From Eledone cirrhosa (Eukaryota), in NCBI GenBank assembly GCA_964016885.1, contig OZ024742.1, positions 214,024,001 through 214,088,000 on the forward strand: a stretch of 64,000 nucleotides of DNA, in the 5' to 3' direction. Position 1 is the first letter of the stretch. Each line of letters starts with the position of its first letter. The notes below the pieces were generated by a model. It was given only the letters and a program-made list of their open reading frames with translations. It did not search any database and was not told the origin of the DNA. A program made the translations under genes and the position numbers. Positions 35,925 through 64,000 of the stretch are shown piece after piece.

Positions 35925-36085
35925 GCGGTAGGTCTTCTACACCACCACTCATATATATATATATATTAGAAAGTGAGGGTTTTTTTACAAAATGTAAAAT
36001 AACCGAGGGGTCCTACACGTGTGAAAGTATAAAGAAAAAAAGATGAAATCGAAAATATATATATATATATATATACATATATATG

Positions 36086-36500
36086 TATTGGTAAACGGAA
36101 TAGAAAATGCTGACAAATTGTTCACAGTTGAAAAATGGTTTAATTAGGAATAAAAGAGTATTAGTGATTGTATGGGTTAGTATTCAGTTGTGGTTTTAAG
36201 TTTTTAAGTTTTTACCGGTTGCGCATTTCTAAATGCTTTTCAAAAATAATTTTGAGATAGAGTGTCCGTGCTGTTTGCTCTGATGAGAGCAGAGCAAACA
36301 GATCAGAGCAAACAGCACGGACACTCTATCTCAAAATTATTTTTGAAAAGCATTTAGAAATGCGCAACCGGTAAAAACTTAAAAACTTAAAACCACAACT
36401 GAATACTAACCCATACAATCACTAATACTCTTTTATTCCTAATTAAACCATTTTTCAACTGTGAACAATTTGTCAGCATTTTCTATTCCGTTTACCAATA
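36086..36500. repeat. Long palindrome: 199-bp arms, 17-bp spacer
   Basis: 36086-36284 is the reverse complement of 36302-36500, no mismatch seen by eye; (TA)n flanks. Confidence 0.92.
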
Positions 36501-36551
36501 TATAATAACTTGTGTGTTACACCTCTATTCTTTTAACAAACATATATATGT

Positions 36552-36624
<73 letters not shown>

Positions 36625-37149
36625 TAATTTAATATATCAACTAACATAAGCGCACAGATGCACGCCCATGCTAGCAAATTTAAGTAAGTAAAAAATAAAA
36701 AAAAAACTTTTTTTTAAAAAATATTTTCTTATTTTACGTCCTTTATATTATTGTTCTGCATTCTCCTGCATTGAACCACCTATGTACTATGACATAACCT
36801 GTGTATTTGCTAGCATGGGCGTGCATCTGTGCGCTTATGTTAGTTGATATATTAAATTATCTATATTTATCTCCAAATCACTGATTTGTCGAGCAAACTT
36901 GCCAAAACCACTTCTAAAAAAATTTTTTTGGGGGTGTTAGTAGGCGTCAGTCATCTTACCATCCCATTCCTTCTAACTAGCCTCTGTGTCACGTGATTGA
37001 TTCTTTAGAATCGGCCATTTGACTTGAAGCAGTGAGAATTTCGGTACATAGAATCCAGTCCTCGCAAACTGTTCGATCTACCGAATTATTATTATTTTTA
37101 TATGAGCCGCCAGTGTCCGCGCATTGCCTGGAGACTTAACTGAGAATAG

Positions 37150-37231
37150 ACTCCCTGATGACGCAATGAATTCTCGACAGTTGGATTACGTAACTGTCTT
37201 TATCCCATTGCAGAAACTAATTAGTTGGAGT
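37150..37231 (+). ncRNA. Type I hammerhead ribozyme (unit 1)
   Basis: ACTCC-CTGATGA-stem II (GCAATG/CATTGC, GACAGTT/AACTGTC)-GAA-ACTAATTAGT-T-GGAGT; GUU site after 37226. Confidence 0.85.
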
Positions 37232-37708
37232 GAAAATTTAAGTAAGTAAAAAAATTTTTTAAAAACTTTTTTTTAAAAATATTTTCTTATTTTACGTCCT
37301 TTATATTATTGTTCTGCATTCTCCTGCATTGAACCACCTAGGTACTATGACATAACCTGTGTATTTGCTAGCATGGGCGTGCATCTGTGCGCTTATGTTA
37401 GTTGATATATTAAATTATCTATATTTATCTCCAAATCACTGATTTGTCGAGCAAACTTGCCAAAACCACTTCTAAAAAATTTTTTTTTTCGGGTGTTAGT
37501 AGGCGTCAGTCATCTTACCACCCCATTCCTTCTAACTAGCCTCTGTGTCACGTGATTGATTCTTTAGAATCGGCCATTTGACTTGAAGCAGTGAGAATTT
37601 CGGTACATAGAATCCAGTCCTCGCAAGATGTTCGATCTACCGAATTATTATTATTTTTATATGAGCCGCCAGTGTCCGCGCATTGCCTGGAGACTTAACT
37701 GAGAATAG

Positions 37709-37790
37709 ACTCTTTGATGACGCAATGAATTCTCTACAGTTGGATTACGTAACTGTCTTTATCCCATTGCAGAAACTAATTAGTTGGAGT
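37709..37790 (+). ncRNA. Hammerhead ribozyme (unit 2), core mutated to TTGATGA
   Basis: Copy of 37150-37231 with a C3-to-T change. Confidence 0.7.
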
Positions 37791-38203
37791 GAAAATTTAA
37801 GTAAGTAAAAAATAAAAAAAAAAATTTTTTTTTTTTTACAAAAATATTTTCTTATTTTACGTCCTTTATATATATATATATATATATGTAGATAAATCTA
37901 CCAAGAGTTTACGGTAGTGTCCAATCCGTATGAAGAACTCAATGTATTCCGGATATCATGGAAAGAAGAGATGTAATGAAAAACCACTTTCGGTGAAAAA
38001 TAAACGGTATACAGAGTCAAGATAAAATATTAAACAAATAATGAATAAACAATTCCTTATATTAAACAAAAAAAGTTCATTATTTAACGATCGTTTCTAG
38101 GGTATATATGTGTTATAATTGGTATGCATATTCAACAGATCTATGTACAAAATTATACAAAATTATACAAATTATCAAGATTAAATATACATACCAAAAC
38201 AAC

Positions 38204-40110
38204 CTGAAAGATCACAAATCTAACTTTAACTCTAATCCTTCTATTAGACTTATATGTCCCTCCAAATCAGATATTGGAATAATTAGCAAAAAAATTTTAG
38301 ATAGAGTCATCCCACAAATAAGAAAACACGTTATTTTACCACTCTGGGAAAACACCTCCCAGGTAATTAACTGGTTTAAAAATATTAGGTGTAAATCTTC
38401 TGCTTCTTTCCTACAATTTGATATAGATAATTACTATTCTTCTATATCACCTATACTCCTGAACAAAGCATTGATATTTGCTAAAAATAGATCTAACTTA
38501 ACTTTGGATGACATTAACATTATTACACATGCTAGACTAACACTTATTGAATTTCAGAATGAATACTGGACCAGAAACACATACAGTAATCTTTTTGATA
38601 TTACTATGGGTTCAAGCGATTCCGCCCAAATTACTGATCTTGTGGGCCTCTTTCTCCTTTTCAACATAAATGCCTCTTTTCCCCACCTCAAAGGTGGTTT
38701 ATATCGTGATGACTGTCTTCTTCTTTCTAACAACCTTAGCCTTTCAGAAATCGAAAAAAACAAAAAACATATTAGAACTTTCCTTAAAGACTATTATAAT
38801 CTTAATATTACTTTTGAAAAAACAAGTAAAGTAGTAAATTTCCTAGATATAACTTTAGATTTAGCTACGGGTATCTACCAACCTTACCATAAACCTAACC
38901 AAAACTTACATTACATACACTCACAATCTAATCACCCTAAATCTATCCTTAAAAACCTTGCATATAATATATCACTTAGAATTTCTAACCTTTCTTCTAA
39001 CCAAGATGTATTTGATAAAAATGCGACCTTTTATAATGAAGCTCTAGATAGAAGTGGCCACAAAAATAGATTAGAGTATATACCTTCTACTAAAAATACT
39101 GAAAGCATACAACATAATATTACCAACAAACACCAAATGAAAAGTACACACCTAAATGCCACCCACAATATACCCCAAAATACTAAATCTTCTAATATAA
39201 AGTATAGTAACCCTCAAAAAACTACTCATCATACAACTATAATAAATATTAATAATAAAACTCCTAATAAAAAAGATAAAACACCTAAATCTACAAATAT
39301 AACTAAAAATAGTTGTGGTGAGATCATTAACATTAATCCTCCTAGTAAAAATCACGATACAACCTATAAAAATAATAAAAATAATAAACAACATAGAAAC
39401 CGTAATAGACGGGTTACTTGGTATAATGCTCCTTTTAATTTACAAGTTAAGGATAATATTGCTAAAAAATTTTTTTATATCCTTGAGAAAAACTTCCCGC
39501 CAAACCACAAATACCATCAAATCTTAAATAGGTCTACAGTTAAATTCTCATACTCTACAACAAATAACATAAAACAAAATATAAGTGCATATAATGCATA
39601 TAAATGTAAGAAAACCATAAGTATACCACCAGTACATCAAATTAACCATAATATCTCCTCAAATACAGAATTAACGAAAGGATGTAACTGTAGAAACAAA
39701 GCAAACTGCCCATTAAAAGGGAATTGTCTTGTTAACAACATAATCTATAAATGTAATGTTAAAACTAAAGATTCTATTTGCTCATATATAGGAGCTACCT
39801 CTAACAATTTTAAGACAAGGTTTAATACCCACAAGCATAGTTTTTTAAAAATGCCGCACTGGCTAATACAACATCTCTAGCAGAAAAAATCAATAGTTAT
39901 AAAAATAAGAATATAAAATATGATTTGACCTGGAGTGTGCTCAAAAGAGCCACCCCTTATCAAAATAATAGAAATGAATGTAGATTATGTTCCCAAGAAC
40001 TATTTGAAATAATGAAGTCTAAGGATATCTTATTAAATAAACGACAGGAATTAATTATATCGTGTAATCATAAACTAAAAAAAACATTTAAATATTATAA
40101 ACCTAATTAA
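38204..40110 (+). pseudogene. PLE reverse transcriptase + GIY-YIG endonuclease (one frameshift near 39860)
   Basis: RLICPSKSDIG, FLQFDI, MGSSD, GLYRDD, FLDITLDL, SNHP, WYNAPF, CNCRNKANCP, IIY..YIG and CRLC motifs; the CxCx5C and CxxC motifs match Naiad. Confidence 0.9.
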
Positions 40111-40569
40111 TAACATTATTCTAGAAATTAATTTAATTTAAATGTTAGTTAACCTATAAATTTAATTTAATTAATATTTTATTACAGATGAGAATATAAA
40201 ATATTATGTAATCATAAATTGTGAAAAACCTTTAAATATTACTAATATATACTTAGTAATTTAATTTATAGATTAATTTTAATTTATTTAAACCTTTTAT
40301 TATAACTCTTTTACAGATAAAATATAACAAAATAATATCGTGTATCCAATGACAGAGAAATAATTTTTAGTATTATAGACCTAATTAATATACATTTTGG
40401 AAATATATTTATTATTTGGTTTTAGTTTTAATCAACCTAAAAATTTTAATTTTAATTTGCTTAAAATTAGTATCCTTATACAGACGAATTGCAGAATGTC
40501 ATGTAATCATAGAATGGGATGTGTTTTAGATATATACCTAGTTAATATATTCTGTGCAATTTTTTGAAA

Positions 40570-40643
40570 AAGATATGTATATGTATATGTGTATGTGTAT
40601 GTGTGTGTGTGTATGTGTATCTGTATGTATGTATATATGTGTA

Positions 40644-40686
<43 letters not shown>

Positions 40687-42152
40687 ATATGTATGTATAT
40701 GTGTATGTGTATGTATATGTATATGTATGCGTATTAATTTTGATTTCTATTTGCATATAATTATATTATGCTATTGATGAAATACAATATCTGCTTTATG
40801 TATTGTATACCTAATTAACATATACTATTGAAATAAATATATAATTTTTAATTTAGTTAACATATAATTTATATGCTACTACCGATGTAATACTTTATTT
40901 TATTTTTATTTGGGTTTCTTTTCCCTATTACTAAATTCATTTCCTAATATTGATACCATAACGTTATTAACTTTAATTTAGTTATACTGTAATTAATAAT
41001 CTACTACTGTTTGACTTCAAAATTCTGCTTCAAATATTATAAACCTAACTAATTTACACCTTAGAAATCAATATGTTGACTATCTTTGGTTTAGTTAACA
41101 TATGATTAATGGTATACTTATTTATTTTGAGATGCATTGATTTTGCCTTGGTTCTTGTTTGTCGTATTTCCTAGCACTGAAAATATGTAAGAACATACAT
41201 TGGATAAAGATATGGAAAATATTATATGTTTCTTGAAACATATATTTACTTTGATCCCCTTCTCCAAACCCCCCCTTTCCCCCATACTATTATCATCTGT
41301 ATTTGTAAGCGTCTATGTATGAATATATATGTAGGTAGGTGTCTATATAGGTTTGGGTATTTATATCTAAATATAAAAATACATATATGCGCATGCAAAT
41401 ATGAATGTAAGATTGCGTGTGTATATATGAGTGTACATATGTATGTATATATATGTATATATATGCATTATATATGTATGTGTATGTGAATGTGTGTATG
41501 TATATGTGTATGTATGTGTATATATGTGTATATATGTGTATACTTGTATATATAGGAATATATATATATGTGTATATATATATATGTATATGTATATGCG
41601 TGTGTATGTATGTGTATGTATGTGTGTTATATATATATGTATGTCTCTCTATTTATATGTTTATCTTCGTATCTATGTGATATATATGTGTGTGTGTGTG
41701 CACGTATGTATATGTATGTGTTTTGTGTGTGTTTGTATGTGTGTGTGTATATATGTGTATGTGCGCACACACACATACACATATATATATGTGAGTGTGT
41801 ATATGTGTCTGTATATGTGTATGTGTGTATATATATATGTATATGTATATATATATATAGATATATATATATATATATAGGTGTCTATGTGTGAATATAT
41901 GTCTTTATTCGTATGTGTGTATTTATGTATGTATATGTTTATGTGTATATATGTATGTGTATGTATGTATGTATATATATATATATATATATATGTATAT
42001 GTGTATATATATATATGTATATTATTCTTTATTATTATAATATAACTTATGTGTATATGTGTATAAGTGAGGTTGTGTATGTGTATATAATATGTGTATA
42101 TATAAGTATATAAAAAAATATATATATATATATGCGCATGTCTGTTTTTTTA

Positions 42153-42238
<86 letters not shown>

Positions 42239-42658
42239 GGTGTTTGTATGTGTATTTATGGTGGTATGAGTGTGTGGATATATATGTGTATGTATATATA
42301 TATATATATGTATGAGTGTATGTGTGTGTATATATATATATACATATATATATGTGTATATATATGTATATATATATGTGTATGTATGTGTGTATATATA
42401 TATATCTCTATTAATGCGTGTGTGTATGTATATACATATGCCTTTTTATTATTATTTTTATTTGTATGTCTGAGTTAGGTGAGGTTGTAGTGTTTTTTAT
42501 GTATATACGCATATATGGAAGCGTATGTATTTTTATATATATGAGTATAAGTAGGTGCATATGTATGTATGATTATATATCTAATTCTATGTATGAATGT
42601 ACATCTATATATATATATGTGTGTATGTAAGTTGTGTGTGTATGTATCTATATGTCTA

Positions 42659-42703
<45 letters not shown>

Positions 42704-42782
42704 CGATGTGCGTATATGTATGTACATGTATGTACATGTATGTGTGTATGTATGTGTATGTATATTTAGATGTATGTGTATG

Positions 42783-42831
<49 letters not shown>

Positions 42832-43075
42832 ATATATATATATGGATATATATCTTTATTATTTATTTTTTTTATATATATGTGTATGTGTGTATGTGTT
42901 GCGTGTGTGTGTGTTTTATATATATATCTTTATATATGTGTATGTGTATGTTCGTGTAAGTGTATGTGTGTGTATGACTGTATATGTATGTGTGTATGTG
43001 TGTATGCGTAAATATTTCTATGTGCGCGTACATGTATGTATGTGTATATATCTGTATGTGTATGTATATTATATT
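40570..43075 (+). repeat. Compound (TA)/(TG)/(TATG) low-complexity tract
   Basis: Direct reading of the sequence. Confidence 0.9.
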
Positions 43076-43650
43076 ATATTTATTATATTTTATTGTTTTA
43101 TTTTTTTATTTTTCTTAATTTATAGATACATTTATATTAGGCAGTCTGCTCAGACAATTGAATACTGACCCCTTCCCCCCCTCCCACCTAATTTCTGTAT
43201 CTTGATCTAGAAATGTGTGTGCCAGTGTTTTATGTGAGTGAATTAATATCCATGTGCTTATGATTTTATATCCACATATATAAATGTGAGTGGGGGTGTG
43301 TGTGTGTTTGTATGTTCGTGGTTATGTGTATATTTATGCATATACGCGCGTGTATGTGTGATTGTACTGATATGTGTGAGTATGAAAAAATATATTTATA
43401 TACTTGACTCCATAAGTATCAATGCGCATCTTATCTGCGCATGGTAAGCTTACAGGGATATTAACCTTGAAATTTTGTGTTTGCATCCATCTTTTTAGTA
43501 TGCGTATACAAATTATACATACATTTTTGTAAAATATGTGTAAGGGTTTTACATGTATATACACACACCGAACTGCTTTTAACCCTTTGTGTTTTCATTG
43601 GTCAATTTTGAACTGAAATTTTGAATTGTTGTTATTATCAATAAATATAC

Positions 43651-43805
43651 TTCATTATTTCTGAAGACGGCGTATATATGTGTTTGGTATGTATATTTAA
43701 TCTTGATAATTTGTATAATTTTGTATAATTTTGTACATAGATCTGTTGAATATGCATACCAATTATAACACATATATACCCTAGAAACGATCGTTAAATA
43801 ATGAA
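43651..43805 (+). ncRNA. Type I hammerhead ribozyme with a ~115-nt stem II
   Basis: TTCATTATTT-CTGAAGA...GAA-ACGATCGT-T-AAATAATGAA; perfect 10-bp stem I; palindromic stem III; GUU site after 43795. Confidence 0.88.
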
Positions 43806-43850
43806 CTTTTTTTGTTTAATATAAGGAATTGTTTATTCATTATTTGTTTA

Positions 43851-43927
<77 letters not shown>

Positions 43928-44261: not shown

Positions 44262-45195
44262 TTTTCATTTTGTCCTTAATTGTAAGTTGTGATGTTGCTG
44301 TTCCACTCATATTTTCTATTTAATTTTGGTTGTAATTCTTAATATTAAGATAGTAGAAAAACCAGGTACCTCCGTAAAAACACTTATTAGCAAGACATAC
44401 CCTTTTCAAAGACCCCCCTGTATAGATAAGAAATGTATAACCTGTAAAATAAGCCCCCATATTAACTGTAAAACTAGAAATGTAGTATATAGCATAAGAT
44501 GTACTGAAGGACAATGTAGAGATAAGAATATAGTGTACATAGGTGAGACAGCTCGTAGTGTAGAGGAACGGATAAATGAACACTGGCGAGACCTTCAAGA
44601 TAGTAAAGAATCATCTGTACTCTACCAACATGCTAAAATAGAACATAAGGGTAAATTAGAGAACATAGAAATAAAAATAGAATCTACACACAGAATAGTC
44701 GCAATGTTTAGACAAATCACAGAGGCAATAAACATAAAAGAATTACAACCAAAATTAAATAGAATATATGAGTGGAACAGCAACATCACAACTTACAATT
44801 AAGGACAAAATGAAAACACACACGCACATAGAACAAACAACCAACCGGTAACATGTAAATAAACAAATACATAAACGAATATAAACACACACAGACACCC
44901 GGATGTGGCGCATGCGCAGTCTGAGCACACAACACACACACAGAAACAAAATGGCGTAGGACAGAACAAGGGAGAGGCACAAAAACAAAGAAAATAATCC
45001 CAGTCACTGAAGAGGTCACAGAATGTGTGACGAAAGAACTTTGACAATATATAAACAACTATCTGGTTGTGGAACCAACCAACCAACCAGAAATTTATAA
45101 ATTCCTAAATTTATAAATTTATTATAATAAATTGAAGTGAAAGCAGCTGGTGCGTGTGTTTCTTATTGGCAACATGACCCTCCCAAAGTATAACA
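44262..45195 (+). mobile_element. 5'-truncated PLE (non-Naiad): GIY-YIG fragment ~44345-44802 with inverted 5' segment and pLTR
   Basis: CIDKKCITC..C.TRNVVYSIRC..YIGETARS..RINEH..RQITEA..LN; ~44262-44340 is the reverse complement of ~44738-44817. Confidence 0.85.
45003..45045 (+). ncRNA. Minimal type I hammerhead ribozyme
   Basis: GTCA-CTGAAGA-G-GTCACA/TGTGAC-GAAAGAACTT-TGAC. Confidence 0.75.
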
Positions 45196-47434: not shown

Positions 47435-48230
47435 AAATTAAAAATACTTCTGAAAGTGGAATTTTGGCGATGTCTGCAAGAAGAAAATAATTCTGTTTTA
47501 AGATTAATAGAGTTTTGACAGTTAATTATATAAAAAAAATTCCTCTATACACAAGCTACAGAATCTTGAGAAAGCCATATTTCGGTATGCAGGTGCTTTC
47601 GAAATGGTTCCCCAAGATATTGAATAATCTATATTGTTGTCTTTTAAGTTCCAAATTAAATGTGAAAGTGAAGTGGAAGATTTTTTATCGGATCTCTTAA
47701 ATGTGTTTTTATGGTTATACCAGCGTTCTTTGAATTTTAGAGAAGTGGCACCAATATAGTTAAATACTTTGTCTCTAGCTTTAACTGTGCATTTATAAAT
47801 TACGTTTTTGTCTAAGCAATTATTTTGTAAAGGGCAGTTTGATTTACTTCTACAGTTACATTTTCTGGAATTGTTTTTCAGAACGGTACTATTATTCTGA
47901 ATATTGTTGTTAGAAATAGTGTTGTTAGAAATATTATTATTGCTATTTTGGTTAGTTTCGGTAGGGTTTAAATTTAAGTTTCTATTATTAGTTCTATTTA
48001 TATTTTGTGCTATGATCATAGTAGTAGAGTAGGATAGTTTTATAGTGTGTCTGTTAAAAATAGAGTGGTATCTGTGGGCTTTAGGAAAACATTTATCTAG
48101 TGCTTTAAAGAATAGCATTGCTAAAGGTGTTTTAACGCTTAATGAGAATGAGGGAGAGTACCAAATCATATTTCTAGTTCTAGGTTTTTTGTTTGGTTTA
48201 GTGTTTAAGTTAAATTGTTTATTAATATTA

Positions 48231-48268
<38 letters not shown>
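47435..48268 (-). pseudogene. Naiad-type PLE, C-terminal half (poly-Asn linker + GIY-YIG)
   Basis: RTRNMIWYSPSFS, IKLSYSTT, CNCRSKSNCP, VIY..YIGATS and CSLC motifs. Confidence 0.88.
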
Positions 48269-48269
<1 letters not shown>

Positions 48270-48270
<1 letters not shown>

Positions 48271-51200
48271 AGTTGCATTTATCTTGCTTTATGTTCATAC
48301 GAGTTATCACCAAGTCACAACCAGTGACTTCAAGAGACAACAAGGTCCGCCATGTTCAAGAAAGAACATACATATTCACACATGCATCTTTATTGTTTAG
48401 ACTTGTGATGTACTTATATTGACAGAATCTTCCTTAGTATATGGGCAGTTCCCATTAGTACTATCTTTTGTATTTCTCCTATACGCGGGTTTCCTGGGAT
48501 TTGCGATAAGTAATCATTAGATCCCTTAGGTATCATTCCCAGAGCGCCTACAACCACTGGTATTGTTTTAGTTATCAATTTCCACATTTTTCCAATGTCT
48601 ATCTCCAGGTCCTTATACTTGCTCAATTTTTCAAATGTTTTTATAAATACATTCTTGTCTATTGGAACAGACATATCAATTAGCAGGCATACCCTCTTTT
48701 GAAAGTCCTTCAATATTATATCAGGTCTATTTGCATCTATTTTTCGGTCTGTTTGGATGCTAAAGTTCCACAAGATTGAGATGTGATCTTTTTCAAGTAT
48801 GGGAGGTGGTTGATGCTCCCACCAATTCTTTTGATGGGGCAGGTCAAAATGCTTACACATTATCCAATGTATGTATTGTGCAGCTCTGTCATGCCTGTTT
48901 AGGTATTCGGTTGGAGCTATAGGACTGCACACTGAAATTATATGGTCAATGGTCTCTGGTTGTTTTTTGCATACACGGCATAATGGGCTGCACCCATTTT
49001 TTATTATGTTGGCTTGGTAATTTTTTGTTGGCAGACACTGATCTTGTGCCGATATAATCAGTCCTTCAGTCTCCGATTTCAGTCCAGAGGATGCCAACCA
49101 CTTATGGGTTAAGGTTTTGTCAACATCAGGATTGTTAGCTCGCTCTGGGTATTTTCCATACAGAGGCTTTTCTTGCCATTTCTTAGCCAGTTTCTGTAGC
49201 AGTTCTTTCTTTGCAGTTACTTTTACCTGCTTTGCTTTTTCTGTGTTTTCCATTTCAGCAGTAAATGGGACTTCTGAAATTTGTAGTCCATTACTGTATC
49301 TTTGTGCATCTTTTGTAATGGAATATGATCTTTTGATGCTTTCGTGTTTCAAAACGAGTTTGATCATCCAATCATGTGATTCCCTTAGATATGTAGATAA
49401 TCCAATTGTTGCAGTTTTCAACGCAATGTCTAACTGGACTAACCCACATCCTCCTTCTTTCCTAGGGAGATATATTCTATCTATAACTGCCTTAGGGTGA
49501 TGCATTCTGTGCATGGTTAAGAATTTTCGAATTTTTGTATCGAGCCTACGGATCTCTGTGCTTGACCAGTTGATGACATTGTAACTGTAGGTTACTACTG
49601 GTATGGCAAGCGTGTTTATGGCATCGATCCTATTCCTTGCATTCAATTCCGTTCTTAAGATTGCTCTTACTCTGCGGTAACATTCCTTCCTTATCCTTTC
49701 CCCCATTGTCGAGTGCTTGATTCCGTCTCCTTCACAAACACCTAGATATTTGTAAGTTTTTTCTTGATCAAGTTCTCTTATCACGTTCCCCCGATCAAGA
49801 TTAATGTCTGAACTCTTCAGCAGCTTTCCTCTGGTGAACGTTGCTTTGGCGCATTTATCTAGTCCAAACTCCATTTTAATGTCATCACTGAACTGCTTCA
49901 CAGTGGATAATAGACCTTGCAATTGTTCATCATTTTTTGCAAATAGTTTCAGGTTATCCATGTAGAACAGGCGATTAATGGTTTTGTCATAGAATTTATA
50001 TCCATGTTTTGTTTCATTGAGCATTTTACTTAATGGTATAAGTGCGATGCAGAATAAAAGCGGTGATAAAGAGTCACCCTGAAAAATTCCACAATTAATA
50101 TTAACTTTTCCAGCTTCCAGTGATTTTGTTTCACTATTCAAAAGGAGTGTCGTTTTCCATGTCTTCATACTGAATGACAAAAACCTCCTGACAACGGGGG
50201 ATATTTTGAAAATCTCTAAACATTTTTCAATCCAACTGTGTGGCAAACTATCGAATGCTTTTTTATAATCTATCCAAGCAATCGATAAATTTTTGTGTCT
50301 ATTATGACAATCTTCCAGTATCATTTTGTTAACCAGAAGCTGATCCTTACAGCCATATGAGCCTCGTTTACACCCTTTCTGCTCAATGGGAAATAGGTCA
50401 TTTGTTATCAGGTGGTCATATGTGTATTCAGTTAGGACTGATGTTAAAAGTTTATACATTGTGGTCAAGCAAGTTATCGGTCTGTAATTTTTGGGATTGT
50501 TTGTCTCATCATTCTTCGGAAGCAGGAATGTAATGCCGTTAACTAGCCATGAGGGTATCTTTTCTGGCTCCTTAACTATTTCATTGTAAAGTTGGGCTAA
50601 CAGCTCATGAGACTCTGTGAAGGCATTTATCAAAAAGTTTTGTATTTTGTCTTTTCCTGGGGATTTGTATTTGCTGGTTTTTCTTAGAGCCAAGCGCAAC
50701 TGTTCAACTGTTGTATTTTCCCATGTTTGTTCCTCAAGGTGAGCTGTATCTTTCATTTGTCTGTCTATCCATGGGGCATGTATGTTATGAACTTTTTCTT
50801 CGGCCCAGATCTTTTTCCAGAATTCTTGCACTTCCTCCTTGGGTGGTATTGATTTAGCAGTTATTGTTGACTTACCAATTTTTCTGTAGAAGTTTCTTTG
50901 GTTGTTTTTGAACATATTATTGTCCTTATAGAATCTAGATCGTTTTTCAAAGCGCCTTATACGAGCAGCTTTGGCCGACACTTTTTATTGATTATTTCTA
51001 TCAGCATGTCTATGTCACATGTTGATTTTATACTGTACTTTTTTTTCAATTTTCTAAGTTTAGTTTGTTTAACATGTTCACCTACTTTATAGTTTGTTAA
51101 AATTTCTATGTCAGATCGGAGAAGGTTTATTTGGCGATTGATGTTCTCTTGCCAAGTAGATTTCTTGTGGGAATTCCTTTGTTTTTTCATCTTCACTCCA

Positions 51201-62593: not shown

Positions 62594-64000
62594 TGGAGAG
62601 ATGACCCCTTAGCCTTTGTCACCGGGAGAGATGACCCCTTAGTCTTTGTCAAGGCAGAATTCCAGGAGAAGGAAAACTCAGATATAACACCTGCAACTCT
62701 GATGGTATCCAATGATGTTGACTTGTTCTTCTTTTTGGTAAATATCATCTTGGTTAAGAGAGTGGGACTGGCTTTGTGCAGTGCCTTTGCTCACTATAAA
62801 AGCTTCACGGCACAGGCATTGCTTTATATCTGGAGATCTCTCTGCACTTATCGTCACATGATACCATGGGCCTAGCACTATGTGTCAATAATTGTCACAA
62901 GTGTAGTGTTTGTACCAGAGTTTTCAAGTCGCTGGCTGGACTAAAAGGTCACACTTGTTCAGCGCATCGGTAGGAGTTCTCCTACATGGATATAAAGTAG
63001 TGGCCGTACTCTAAAACGAGTTGGCAGCCACCATGTATGTATGTATGTATGTATGTATGTATGTATGTATGTATGTATGTATGTATGTATGTATGTATGT
63101 ATGTATGTATGTATGTATGTGCAGTGCCTTTGCTCACTATAAAAGCTTCACGGTACAGGCATTGCTTTATATCTGGAGATCTCTCTGCATTTGTCGTCAC
63201 ATGGTACCATGGGCCCAGCACTATGTGTCAATAATTGTCACAAGTGTAGTGTTTGTACCAGACTTTTCAAGTCGCTGGCTGGTCTAAAATGTCACACTCG
63301 TTCAGCGCATCGGTAGGGGTTCTCCTACATTGATATAAAGTATTGGCCGTACTCGAAAACGAGTTGGCAGCCACCATGTATGTATGTATGTATGTATGTA
63401 TGTATGTATGTATGTATGTATGTATGTATGTATGTATGTATGTATGTCAGGTTACCAGTTGGTGCTACTGGTAACATGTATCCCAGTACAACCTGTCCCA
63501 TGGTCGCGTCGTTGGCGACTAAACTGGCAACCACACTAAGGTTTCTTGGTGAGGAGGGTGACTTTGGACATCCTGCAGGACTAAAAACAAAACCTGTCAA
63601 AGGGCAAAGGAGCTCTTAAGAGTCAATGGCCATCCAAAATCACCGGGAGAGATGATCCCTTAGCCTTTTCCAAGGCAGAATTCTAGGAGAAGGAAATCTC
63701 TGATATAACACCTGAAACCCTGATGGTATCCAATGATGTTGACTTGTTCTTCTTTTTGGTAAATATCATCTTGGTTAAGAGAGTGGGACTGGCTTTGTGC
63801 AGTGCCTTTGCTCACTATAAAAGCTTCATGGCACAGGCATTGCTTTGTATCTGGAGATCTCTTTGCACTTGTCGTCACATGGTACCATGGGCCCAGCACT
63901 GTGTCAATAATTGTCACAAGTGTAGCGTTTGTGCCAGAGTTTTCAAGTCGCTGGCTGGACTAAAAAGTCACACTCGTTCAGCGCATCGGTAGGGGTTCTC
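62594..64000 (+). mobile_element. Three head-to-tail copies (62594-63033, 63119-63377, 63447 to window end) of an RTE-tailed non-autonomous element in (ATGT)n
   Basis: Shared 3' end with staggered 5' ends; encodes HKCSVCARVFKSLAGLKSHTRSAHR*; 3' stem-loop CTCG-AAAA-CGAG; separated by (ATGT)n. Confidence 0.85.

What the first reader, a model, noticed from the sequence alone, without database searches (positions are those of the whole stretch)
36619..37870. Tandem ~559-nt hammerhead retrozyme whose first unit begins 7 nt after the cleavage site
Seen: 2.1 non-coding units, each ending in a hammerhead with palindromic stem III ACTAATTAGT. The array starts at AAATTTAAG, which is 7 nt past the GUU site. 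An inverted 60-bp piece precedes it and (TA)n flanks both ends. Known: metazoan non-LTR retrozymes and PLE pLTRs carry minimal hammerheads that can act as dimers and yield circular RNA. Inference: reverse transcription of a ribozyme-cut multimeric or circular RNA by a PLE RT, possibly a new retrozyme family.
Basis: partly seen in the sequence, partly recalled or inferred. Interest (0 to 1): 0.75.

Follow-up and report, generated by a model that had tools for sequence, protein, structure and literature searches.

The report
Retrozyme stamped by Penelope-type copying
This is one young copy of a 559-base non-coding repeat, present thousands of times in this animal genome, that carries a predicted self-cutting RNA motif; its copies end at two fixed points and start unusually often at the predicted cut, which likely records the RNA cutting itself and being copied from both sides by a Penelope-type jumping-gene enzyme.

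Summary
The array has 2.1 non-coding units, a type I hammerhead with a GUU site after 37226, an inverted 66-nt arm and (TA)n flanks. The family has 4,396 exact motif hits (about 2,600 loci, estimated) and two sister families. None of 59 sampled loci is joined to an ORF.

Arms end 80 or 202 nt after the cut. In 35 of 37 two-armed loci one end of each kind is paired; none pairs like with like. This is the Penelope 'tail' mark, here 122 nt long. Most starts are scattered, but 29 loci start exactly at the cut, against 3 and 1 hits at control sites, so the ribozyme likely cuts in vivo. This copy's start (7-10 nt after the cut, at a 4-nt microhomology) is only suggestive.

Nine cut-start arms read through intact junctions, which points to linear, partly cut multimers; a circle is not shown. 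The hammerhead is not minimal, and the second copy's core is mutated. The adjacent young PLE shares the hammerhead oddities and end spacing, so it is a candidate helper.

Verdict: a new member of the animal retrozymes. The scan noted the same marks in other families of this genome.

The parts
36542..36619 (.). (TA)n target, left side
36614..36679 (-). Inverted second arm: unit positions 137-202, ending at the long (+202) 3' end fused to (TA)n
   Evidence: 66 nt, 98.5%; same end in many loci
36676..36679 (.). 4-nt microhomology (AAAT) joining the 5' ends of the two arms
36676..37226 (+). Unit 1 (unit positions 8-559); 2 substitutions from the majority of young copies in the columns scored
36806..36846 (+). 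Predicted long hairpin in the 122-nt tail, upstream of the long end; also predicted in both sister families
37150..37231 (+). Type I hammerhead with intact core; extra C after A9 and extra A before G12, extended stem II, palindromic stem III, predicted cut after 37226 (GUU)
   Evidence: cut position supported
37227..37785 (+). Unit 2 (positions 1-559)
37709..37790 (+). Second hammerhead with C3>U, a stem I C>U and a stem II G>U; likely impaired, changes likely post-insertion
37786..37871 (+). Partial unit 3 (positions 1-80), ending at the short (+80) 3' end
37866..37887 (.). (TA)n target, right side; separates the array from the neighbouring PLE
37885..43859 (+). Separate two-armed insertion of an autonomous PLE family (candidate helper): inverted arm 37885-38201 with the long end; 5'-truncated main arm 38200-43859 with the short end; RT-linker-endonuclease frames 38066-39880 and 39841-40110 (frameshifted)
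43651..43805 (+). Hammerhead of the neighbouring PLE: same extra C, extra A, GUU site, palindromic stem III and long stem II

Best explanation
This is a recent insertion of a non-coding tandem repeat with a type I hammerhead motif (a retrozyme) that was likely written into a (TA)n tract by a Penelope-like (PLE) reverse transcriptase-endonuclease acting in trans. Shown: the unit, the motif, thousands of dispersed copies, no ORF link in the sample, two fixed 3' ends (+80, +202), their strict pairing in head-to-head arms, shared variants between arms, and an excess of starts exactly at the GUU site. Inferred: (1) arrays are transcribed into multimeric RNA; (2) the hammerhead cuts, but slowly, so most junctions stay intact; (3) the PLE enzyme cuts both strands of a TA tract, and each DNA end primes at one of two internal start sites on the same RNA; (4) the two cDNAs stop at random or at a ribozyme-made 5' end and are joined through microhomology, giving a long arm and an inverted arm; (5) the best helper candidate is the young 830-aa PLE family next door (about 35%). 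In this copy the +80 arm ran 1,190 nt through two intact junctions and the +202 arm ran 66 nt.
For: Copy number: 4,396 hits. Ends and pairing: 35 of 37 two-armed loci among 59 pair +80 with +202, 0 pair alike, 2 are unclear; p about 1e-11 against independent choice. The same rule holds by eye in 30 resolved sister-family loci, with about 10 not assignable, in 4 loci of one autonomous PLE (+54/+153) and in 3 of the neighbour PLE (+73/+210). PMC11167929 shows in vitro that a PLE protein cuts and extends both strands and starts at two internal RNA sites that define the tail. One template: among older pieces, arms of one locus differ by 2.1% against 7.0% between loci, and A510G is in all four pieces of L102 on both strands. 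In vivo cutting: 32 hits (29 loci) start exactly at the cut against 3 and 1 hits at two control sites with the same TT|G context; all 30 hits inspected are true junctions, and in 10 of the 28 loci both arms start at the cut. Structure: 8 of 21 pairs change on both sides, 87.6% of cells paired against 34-46% when slid. No ORF link: no sampled locus is contiguous with a PLE frame or shares a 5' flank with another.
Against: There is no RNA-level evidence of expression, cleavage or circles. The minimum-energy fold of the isolated motif is not the hammerhead (-23.3 against -18.5 kcal/mol), and stems I and III show no two-sided change. The unit has no sequence likeness to the candidate helper (score 73 against shuffles 79 +/- 7). 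The 3' ends are TA-like, so part of their sharpness could be microhomology priming or later trimming. The 59-locus sample required the 23-mer across the cut, so insertions with no arm crossing it are missing. The denominators of the start tests were not matched exactly. Among young pieces the within-locus advantage is small (0.7-0.8% against 1.0%). Only four PLE families' hammerhead regions were seen, so an ORF-bearing parent could have been missed.
Confidence: 0.8

Rival explanations
1. Same element and enzyme, but the main template is a ligated 559-nt circle copied by rolling-circle reverse transcription.
For: 39 of 96 arms are longer than one unit. Units of one array share variants (L088, L102, L107). 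The circular fold is stable: z -4.0 for this unit and -4.0 to -4.9 for sister units. Circles are shown for coral, mussel and axolotl retrozymes (PMC7229834).
Against: In 9 of 28 inspected loci an arm starts exactly at a cut site yet reads through one or two intact junctions, which a covalent circle does not give; a jump across a nicked circle could. The 12-unit array L120 shows variants shared by subsets of units (G223A in four, G133C in three), so long arrays grew after insertion. The pairing rule also holds for multi-kb autonomous PLEs, so it is not evidence for a monomer circle.
Confidence: 0.35
2. The array is the pseudo-LTR end of an ordinary ORF-bearing PLE, 5'-truncated before the ORF.
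For: All insertion marks are PLE marks (PMC8557442). A PLE ORF abuts the array in the window. One sister-family arm is joined directly to a PLE 3' region (L098).
Against: Arms longer than a unit always continue into another unit, and none of 59 loci is joined to an ORF. The neighbour PLE is a separate two-armed insertion with its own hammerhead. The other 19 top copies of the L098 PLE continue into their own hammerhead, not the repeat.
Confidence: 0.07
3. A DNA-level satellite spread by recombination and fold-back repair, with an inert hammerhead-like relic.
For: Block duplication in a long array. The junctions show microhomology.
Against: Fixed polar 3' ends, scattered 5' ends, strict end pairing, dispersal into TA tracts and starts at the exact cut nucleotide.
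Confidence: 0.03

Closest known systems
Metazoan non-LTR retrozymes (PMC7229834, parts 2-4 of 6 read; bioRxiv 10.64898/2026.07.22.740005, parts 1-3 of 5 read)
   Same: Non-coding tandem units, one type I hammerhead each, GC under 50% (36%), stable predicted circle, thousands of copies, PLEs in the same genome, short palindromic stem III.
   Different: The unit is longer than the 170-400 nt given for invertebrates but within the 51-972 bp reported for the wider set. It has a GUU site, extra nucleotides on both sides of stem II and a two-part stem II. The insertion anatomy (two fixed ends, paired arms, starts at the cut) is not described in the parts read. Circles are not shown here.
Insertion units of endonuclease-bearing PLEs, with the two RT start sites of Anolis Poseidon PAc (PMC11167929, parts 1-2 of 4 read; PMC8557442, passages)
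   Same: 5' truncation, partial tandems, an inverted 5'-truncated arm, a one-sided tail, AT-rich or (TA)n targets, start sites downstream of the hammerhead, and mostly uncut RNA as template.
   Different: No ORF. The tail is 122 nt instead of 30-40. Strict long-short pairing is counted here. Evidence for cut templates is present, whereas PAc RNA-seq showed no reads ending at the cut.
PLE hammerheads (PMC4209133, parts 1-2 of 4 read)
   Same: [quoted passage not shown]
   Different: Helix III has 3 bp, so it is not the minimal form. It has an extra A before G12 and a GUU triplet, which I did not see described in the parts read.
Non-autonomous Chlamys PLEs such as MRC1 (PMC8557442, passage)
   Same: ORF-less head-to-tail multicopy insertions moved by PLEs.
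   Different: Those resemble their autonomous partner at the 3' end and mostly lack canonical hammerheads. Here no sequence-related partner was found.

Membership tests
Metazoan non-LTR retrozyme | Type I hammerhead in each unit of a tandem repeat | tested here: met
   the second copy in the window is mutated
Metazoan non-LTR retrozyme | Non-coding, GC below 50% | tested here: met
   longest stop-free frame 51 aa, GC 0.36
Metazoan non-LTR retrozyme | Dispersed multicopy family not attached to an ORF and without LTR structure | tested here: met
   primer-binding site and polypurine tract were not searched for separately
Metazoan non-LTR retrozyme | Self-cleavage | tested here: inconclusive
   indirect genomic support only: 29 loci start at the cut against 3 and 1 control hits; no assay
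Metazoan non-LTR retrozyme | Expression as linear and circular monomer RNA | not testable with these tools
   no RNA holder listed
Metazoan non-LTR retrozyme | Target-site duplication longer than 4 bp when present | tested here: inconclusive
   flanks are (TA)n, so a duplication cannot be read
PLE-made insertion | 5' truncation with fixed 3' ends | tested here: met
PLE-made insertion | Inverted 5'-truncated arm and one-sided tail | tested here: met
   35 of 37 two-armed loci; tail 122 nt, longer than the published 30-40
Autonomous PLE (pLTR of an ORF-bearing element) | Joined to an RT plus GIY-YIG ORF | tested here: not met
   0 of 59 loci
Minimal PLE hammerhead (min-HHR) | Helix III reduced to the conserved core | tested here: not met
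   3-bp stem III with a 4-nt palindromic loop, invariant in 12 of 12 aligned rows
Neptune/Nematis-type PLE (neighbour element) | C-terminal endonuclease with a cysteine-rich linker after the RT | tested here: inconclusive
   CNC..NCP..GNC linker and a C-terminal YIG motif seen by eye; Pfam gave no hit for the window's frames; no tree was built, so the clade is not assigned

The most novel reading that the evidence does not exclude
The genome records a full retrozyme cycle with a named helper: the adjacent intact 830-aa PLE family, which shares a GUU hammerhead subtype with extra nucleotides on both sides of stem II and a 120-140-nt tail, works as a dimer that copies one RNA from two fixed sites, one per DNA end. 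The ribozyme cuts in germ cells, and the enzyme copies partly cut linear multimers or jumps precisely across the nick rather than needing a ligated circle.
Probability: 0.3. Interest if true: 0.7.

Novelty: new member of a known kind. Interest (0 to 1): 0.5.

Why it matters
That PLEs move animal retrozymes has been proposed from co-occurrence and pLTR homology (PMC7229834; 10.64898/2026.07.22.740005), and whether these hammerheads cut in vivo is open (PMC4209133, PMC11167929). This family gives countable marks for both: PLE-type paired ends and starts at the cut nucleotide. It also offers a ready in vitro system, a 559-nt RNA with predicted start sites and a young intact PLE ORF. The class itself is known, and the scan has seen the same marks in other families of this genome, which limits the surprise.

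Tried and rejected
Rfam: no hit at gathering level, only hairpin noise at E-value level. Pfam: nothing for the window's PLE frames. Sequencing runs: no RNA holder listed; contigs laid cannot show ends or circles, and the low-depth pieces in X4 and X5 were not interpreted. The apparent cluster of starts at query 507-517 was a break of the search at a low-complexity stretch and vanished. The idea that strict end pairing proves a monomer circle was dropped, because autonomous PLEs do the same. L098 as an ORF-linked parent was rejected. The search for a divergent ORF-linked hammerhead relative gave 195 hits; 29 of the 30 inspected carry units of this family or related ones (L260 shows only a short piece) and none was seen joined to an ORF. 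A sibling PLE family search returned the same family plus three chimeric-looking copies. No sequence homology between unit and helper. The earlier-findings look-up by sequence was empty, and the rearranged-hammerhead notes concern other families. Paper searches listed no paper that describes paired ends or cut-site starts for retrozymes; subscription journals are missing. bioRxiv supplements are closed, and the supplementary figures of PMC11167929 and PMC7229834 were not seen (the text search found nothing); they may show similar insertion anatomy. No fold or complex prediction was run.

Full report
Numbering. Unit positions (U) count from the first base after the predicted cut; window 37227 = U1 and the unit is 559 nt.

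1. Observation. The array is real: U8-559, U1-559, U1-80 on the plus strand (36676-37871), preceded by an inverted U137-202 (36614-36679, 98.5%) and set in (TA)n. The two arms share four bases at the joint. No frame is longer than 51 aa and GC is 36%. The motif is a type I hammerhead by eye: a 5-bp stem I, CUGAUGA, an extra C, stem II opening with G-C, an inner helix, an extra A, GAAA, a 3-bp palindromic stem III and GUU. Rfam does not detect it. Its minimum-energy fold is an alternative about 5 kcal/mol lower. In 12 hand-picked rows from this and sister families, 8 of 21 pairs change on both sides, all in stem II; stem III never varies and stem I varies on one side only. The structure was drawn from the first row, which favours it over the slid controls. 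The window's second hammerhead has C3>U and two further private changes.

2. The family. A 23-mer across the site has 4,396 exact hits in the 3.0-Gb genome and 0 for the reversed control; the first 100 hits form 59 loci, which extrapolates to about 2,600 loci. Two sister families of 520-540 nt give 1,446 and 2,337 hits. I fetched all 59 loci with 3.5-kb flanks; L120 was fetched for its length and left out of the counts. Copies are 84-98% like the window's unit. PLE fragments are common in the flanks because many elements share TA tracts, but none is contiguous with an arm, and the unusual 5' flanks of one-armed loci are not shared between loci.

3. Ends. Of 59 loci, 37 have two head-to-head arms. 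In 35 one arm ends near U80 and the other near U202, none pairs like with like, and 2 are unclear. The 22 one-armed loci end at U80 (12), U202 (9) or, in one, at U80 after an internal deletion. Independent choice would give about 49% mixed pairs (p about 1e-11). By eye the rule holds in 30 resolved two-armed loci of the sister sets, with about 10 not assignable and none alike. It also holds in two autonomous PLE families: +54/+153 in 4 loci and +73/+210 in 3. This is the known PLE layout of an inverted arm and a one-sided tail (PMC8557442, passages). PMC11167929 (parts 1-2 of 4) explains the tail as the stretch between two internal RT start sites and shows both strands cut and extended. The tail here is 122 nt against the published 30-40.

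4. Starts. The 96 arm starts are scattered, with clusters at AT-rich spots; six fall in U1-12, one being an alignment artefact, against 2.1 expected. The sample needs an intact junction, so I tested the cut directly with patterns that demand two non-T bases before the start. At U1 there are 32 hits (29 loci); at two control positions with the same TT|G context there are 3 and 1. All 30 U1 hits inspected (28 loci) are junctions, and one of the 3 controls is a point mutant. The U1 pattern also catches some sister copies, and the second control covers fewer subfamilies, so denominators are not equal. In 10 of the 28 loci both arms start at the cut: seven of the 80+202 type (one read by eye) and three of the 639+202 type. 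In 9 of 28 an arm starts at the cut and still crosses one or two intact junctions. I infer that the ribozyme cuts in vivo, that cutting is incomplete, and that linear RNAs served as templates. The window's start lies in that shoulder, so it may be a trimmed cut end, but AT-rich microhomology can also put starts there.

5. One template, circle or not. Among older pieces, those of one locus differ by 2.0% (same arm) and 2.1% (opposite arms) against 7.0% between loci; among young pieces by 0.8% and 0.7% against 1.0%. Part of the older gap reflects subfamilies. Locus-specific variants run through both arms in L102 and L062. This fits one RNA, or near-identical RNAs, per insertion, and fits a circle and a homogeneous multimer equally. 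The 12-unit array L120 carries variants in subsets of units, so its length is no evidence for rolling circles. The circular fold is stable (z about -4, 60 shuffles), as for published retrozyme circles, but no RNA run was listed.

6. Helper. The ORF to the right belongs to a separate two-armed PLE insertion, 37885-43859. Its family is very young: all 150 scored matches are listed at 100% identity over 249 aa, many within 830-aa open frames, in tandem units of about 6.65 kb. Its hammerhead has the same extra C, extra A, GUU site, palindromic stem III and long stem II, and its ends lie at +73 and +210. Among the hammerhead-like motifs my script listed in the loci, only the retrozyme families had this combination; the script missed the PLE's own motif, so it is not exhaustive. 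There is no sequence homology between unit and PLE, and other TA-targeting PLE families with long tails exist, so the helper is a candidate only. Its linker fits the Neptune/Nematis description in PMC8557442; I built no tree.

7. Comparison. It works like a non-autonomous PLE passenger and meets the testable features of metazoan non-LTR retrozymes (PMC7229834, parts 2-4 of 6; 10.64898/2026.07.22.740005, parts 1-3 of 5); cleavage and circles remain untested. The extra nucleotide after position 9 is typical of PLE hammerheads (PMC4209133, parts 1-2 of 4), and odd pairs at the base of stem II have precedent (PMC3088659, passages). That GUU is a slow triplet is recalled, not taken from a call. My paper searches listed nothing on paired ends or cut-site starts in retrozymes, but supplements and subscription papers were not seen. 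The scan's earlier notes report both marks for other repeat families of this genome. I read them after my own counts and did not check their data; they are not independent support.

8. Verdict. A new member of a known kind, with unusually clear mechanical marks. Confidence is 0.8 for a PLE-moved retrozyme with two-site priming, about 0.35 that a circle is the main template, and about 0.35 for the neighbour PLE as helper. Interest 0.5.

Noticed in passing
window 36082-36535: Perfect 203-bp inverted repeat with a 17-nt spacer and about 31 extra nt on one side, set in (TA)n; a PLE-type two-armed stub of another family, with relatives in L114 (98%), L080 and L082.
   Followed up: partly
window 37885-43859; L231-L234: Very young autonomous PLE family with 830-aa ORFs, 6.65-kb tandem units, a microsatellite-rich 3' region of about 3.7 kb and a 137-nt tail.
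   Followed up: yes
window 40030-41120: Degenerate AT-rich repeats of 110-145 nt in the PLE's 3' region; part of the PLE unit, not the retrozyme.
   Followed up: partly
window 48414-50984 (-): 856-aa open frame of a non-LTR retrotransposon, RVT_1 E=7e-27; the C-terminus looks like a zinc knuckle plus restriction-like endonuclease (recalled).
   Followed up: no
window 44293-44802 (+) and 47522-48355 (-): Two further PLE endonuclease fragments of different families; the first hits Pfam GIY-YIG.
   Followed up: partly
L098:460-500; L080:4178-4190: Retrozyme arms joined without TA to other PLE-type elements: a sister-family arm to a PLE 3' region at a shared 10-nt word, and an arm to the palindromic stub family. 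Possible template switches; single cases.
   Followed up: partly
L120 (G000:C3:9135985-9143316): Array of 12 near-full units plus an inverted arm, with variants shared by subsets of units, suggesting block duplication after insertion.
   Followed up: partly
loci L001-L240: Many other hammerhead-like motifs with palindromic stem III lie in the same TA tracts; 46 motif variants were listed.
   Followed up: no
L271-L300: Junctions at the cut site often carry one or two extra A between the arms, possibly non-templated additions.
   Followed up: no
window 62775-63447: Two-copy 343-nt tandem repeat, each copy ending in (ATGT)n.
   Followed up: no
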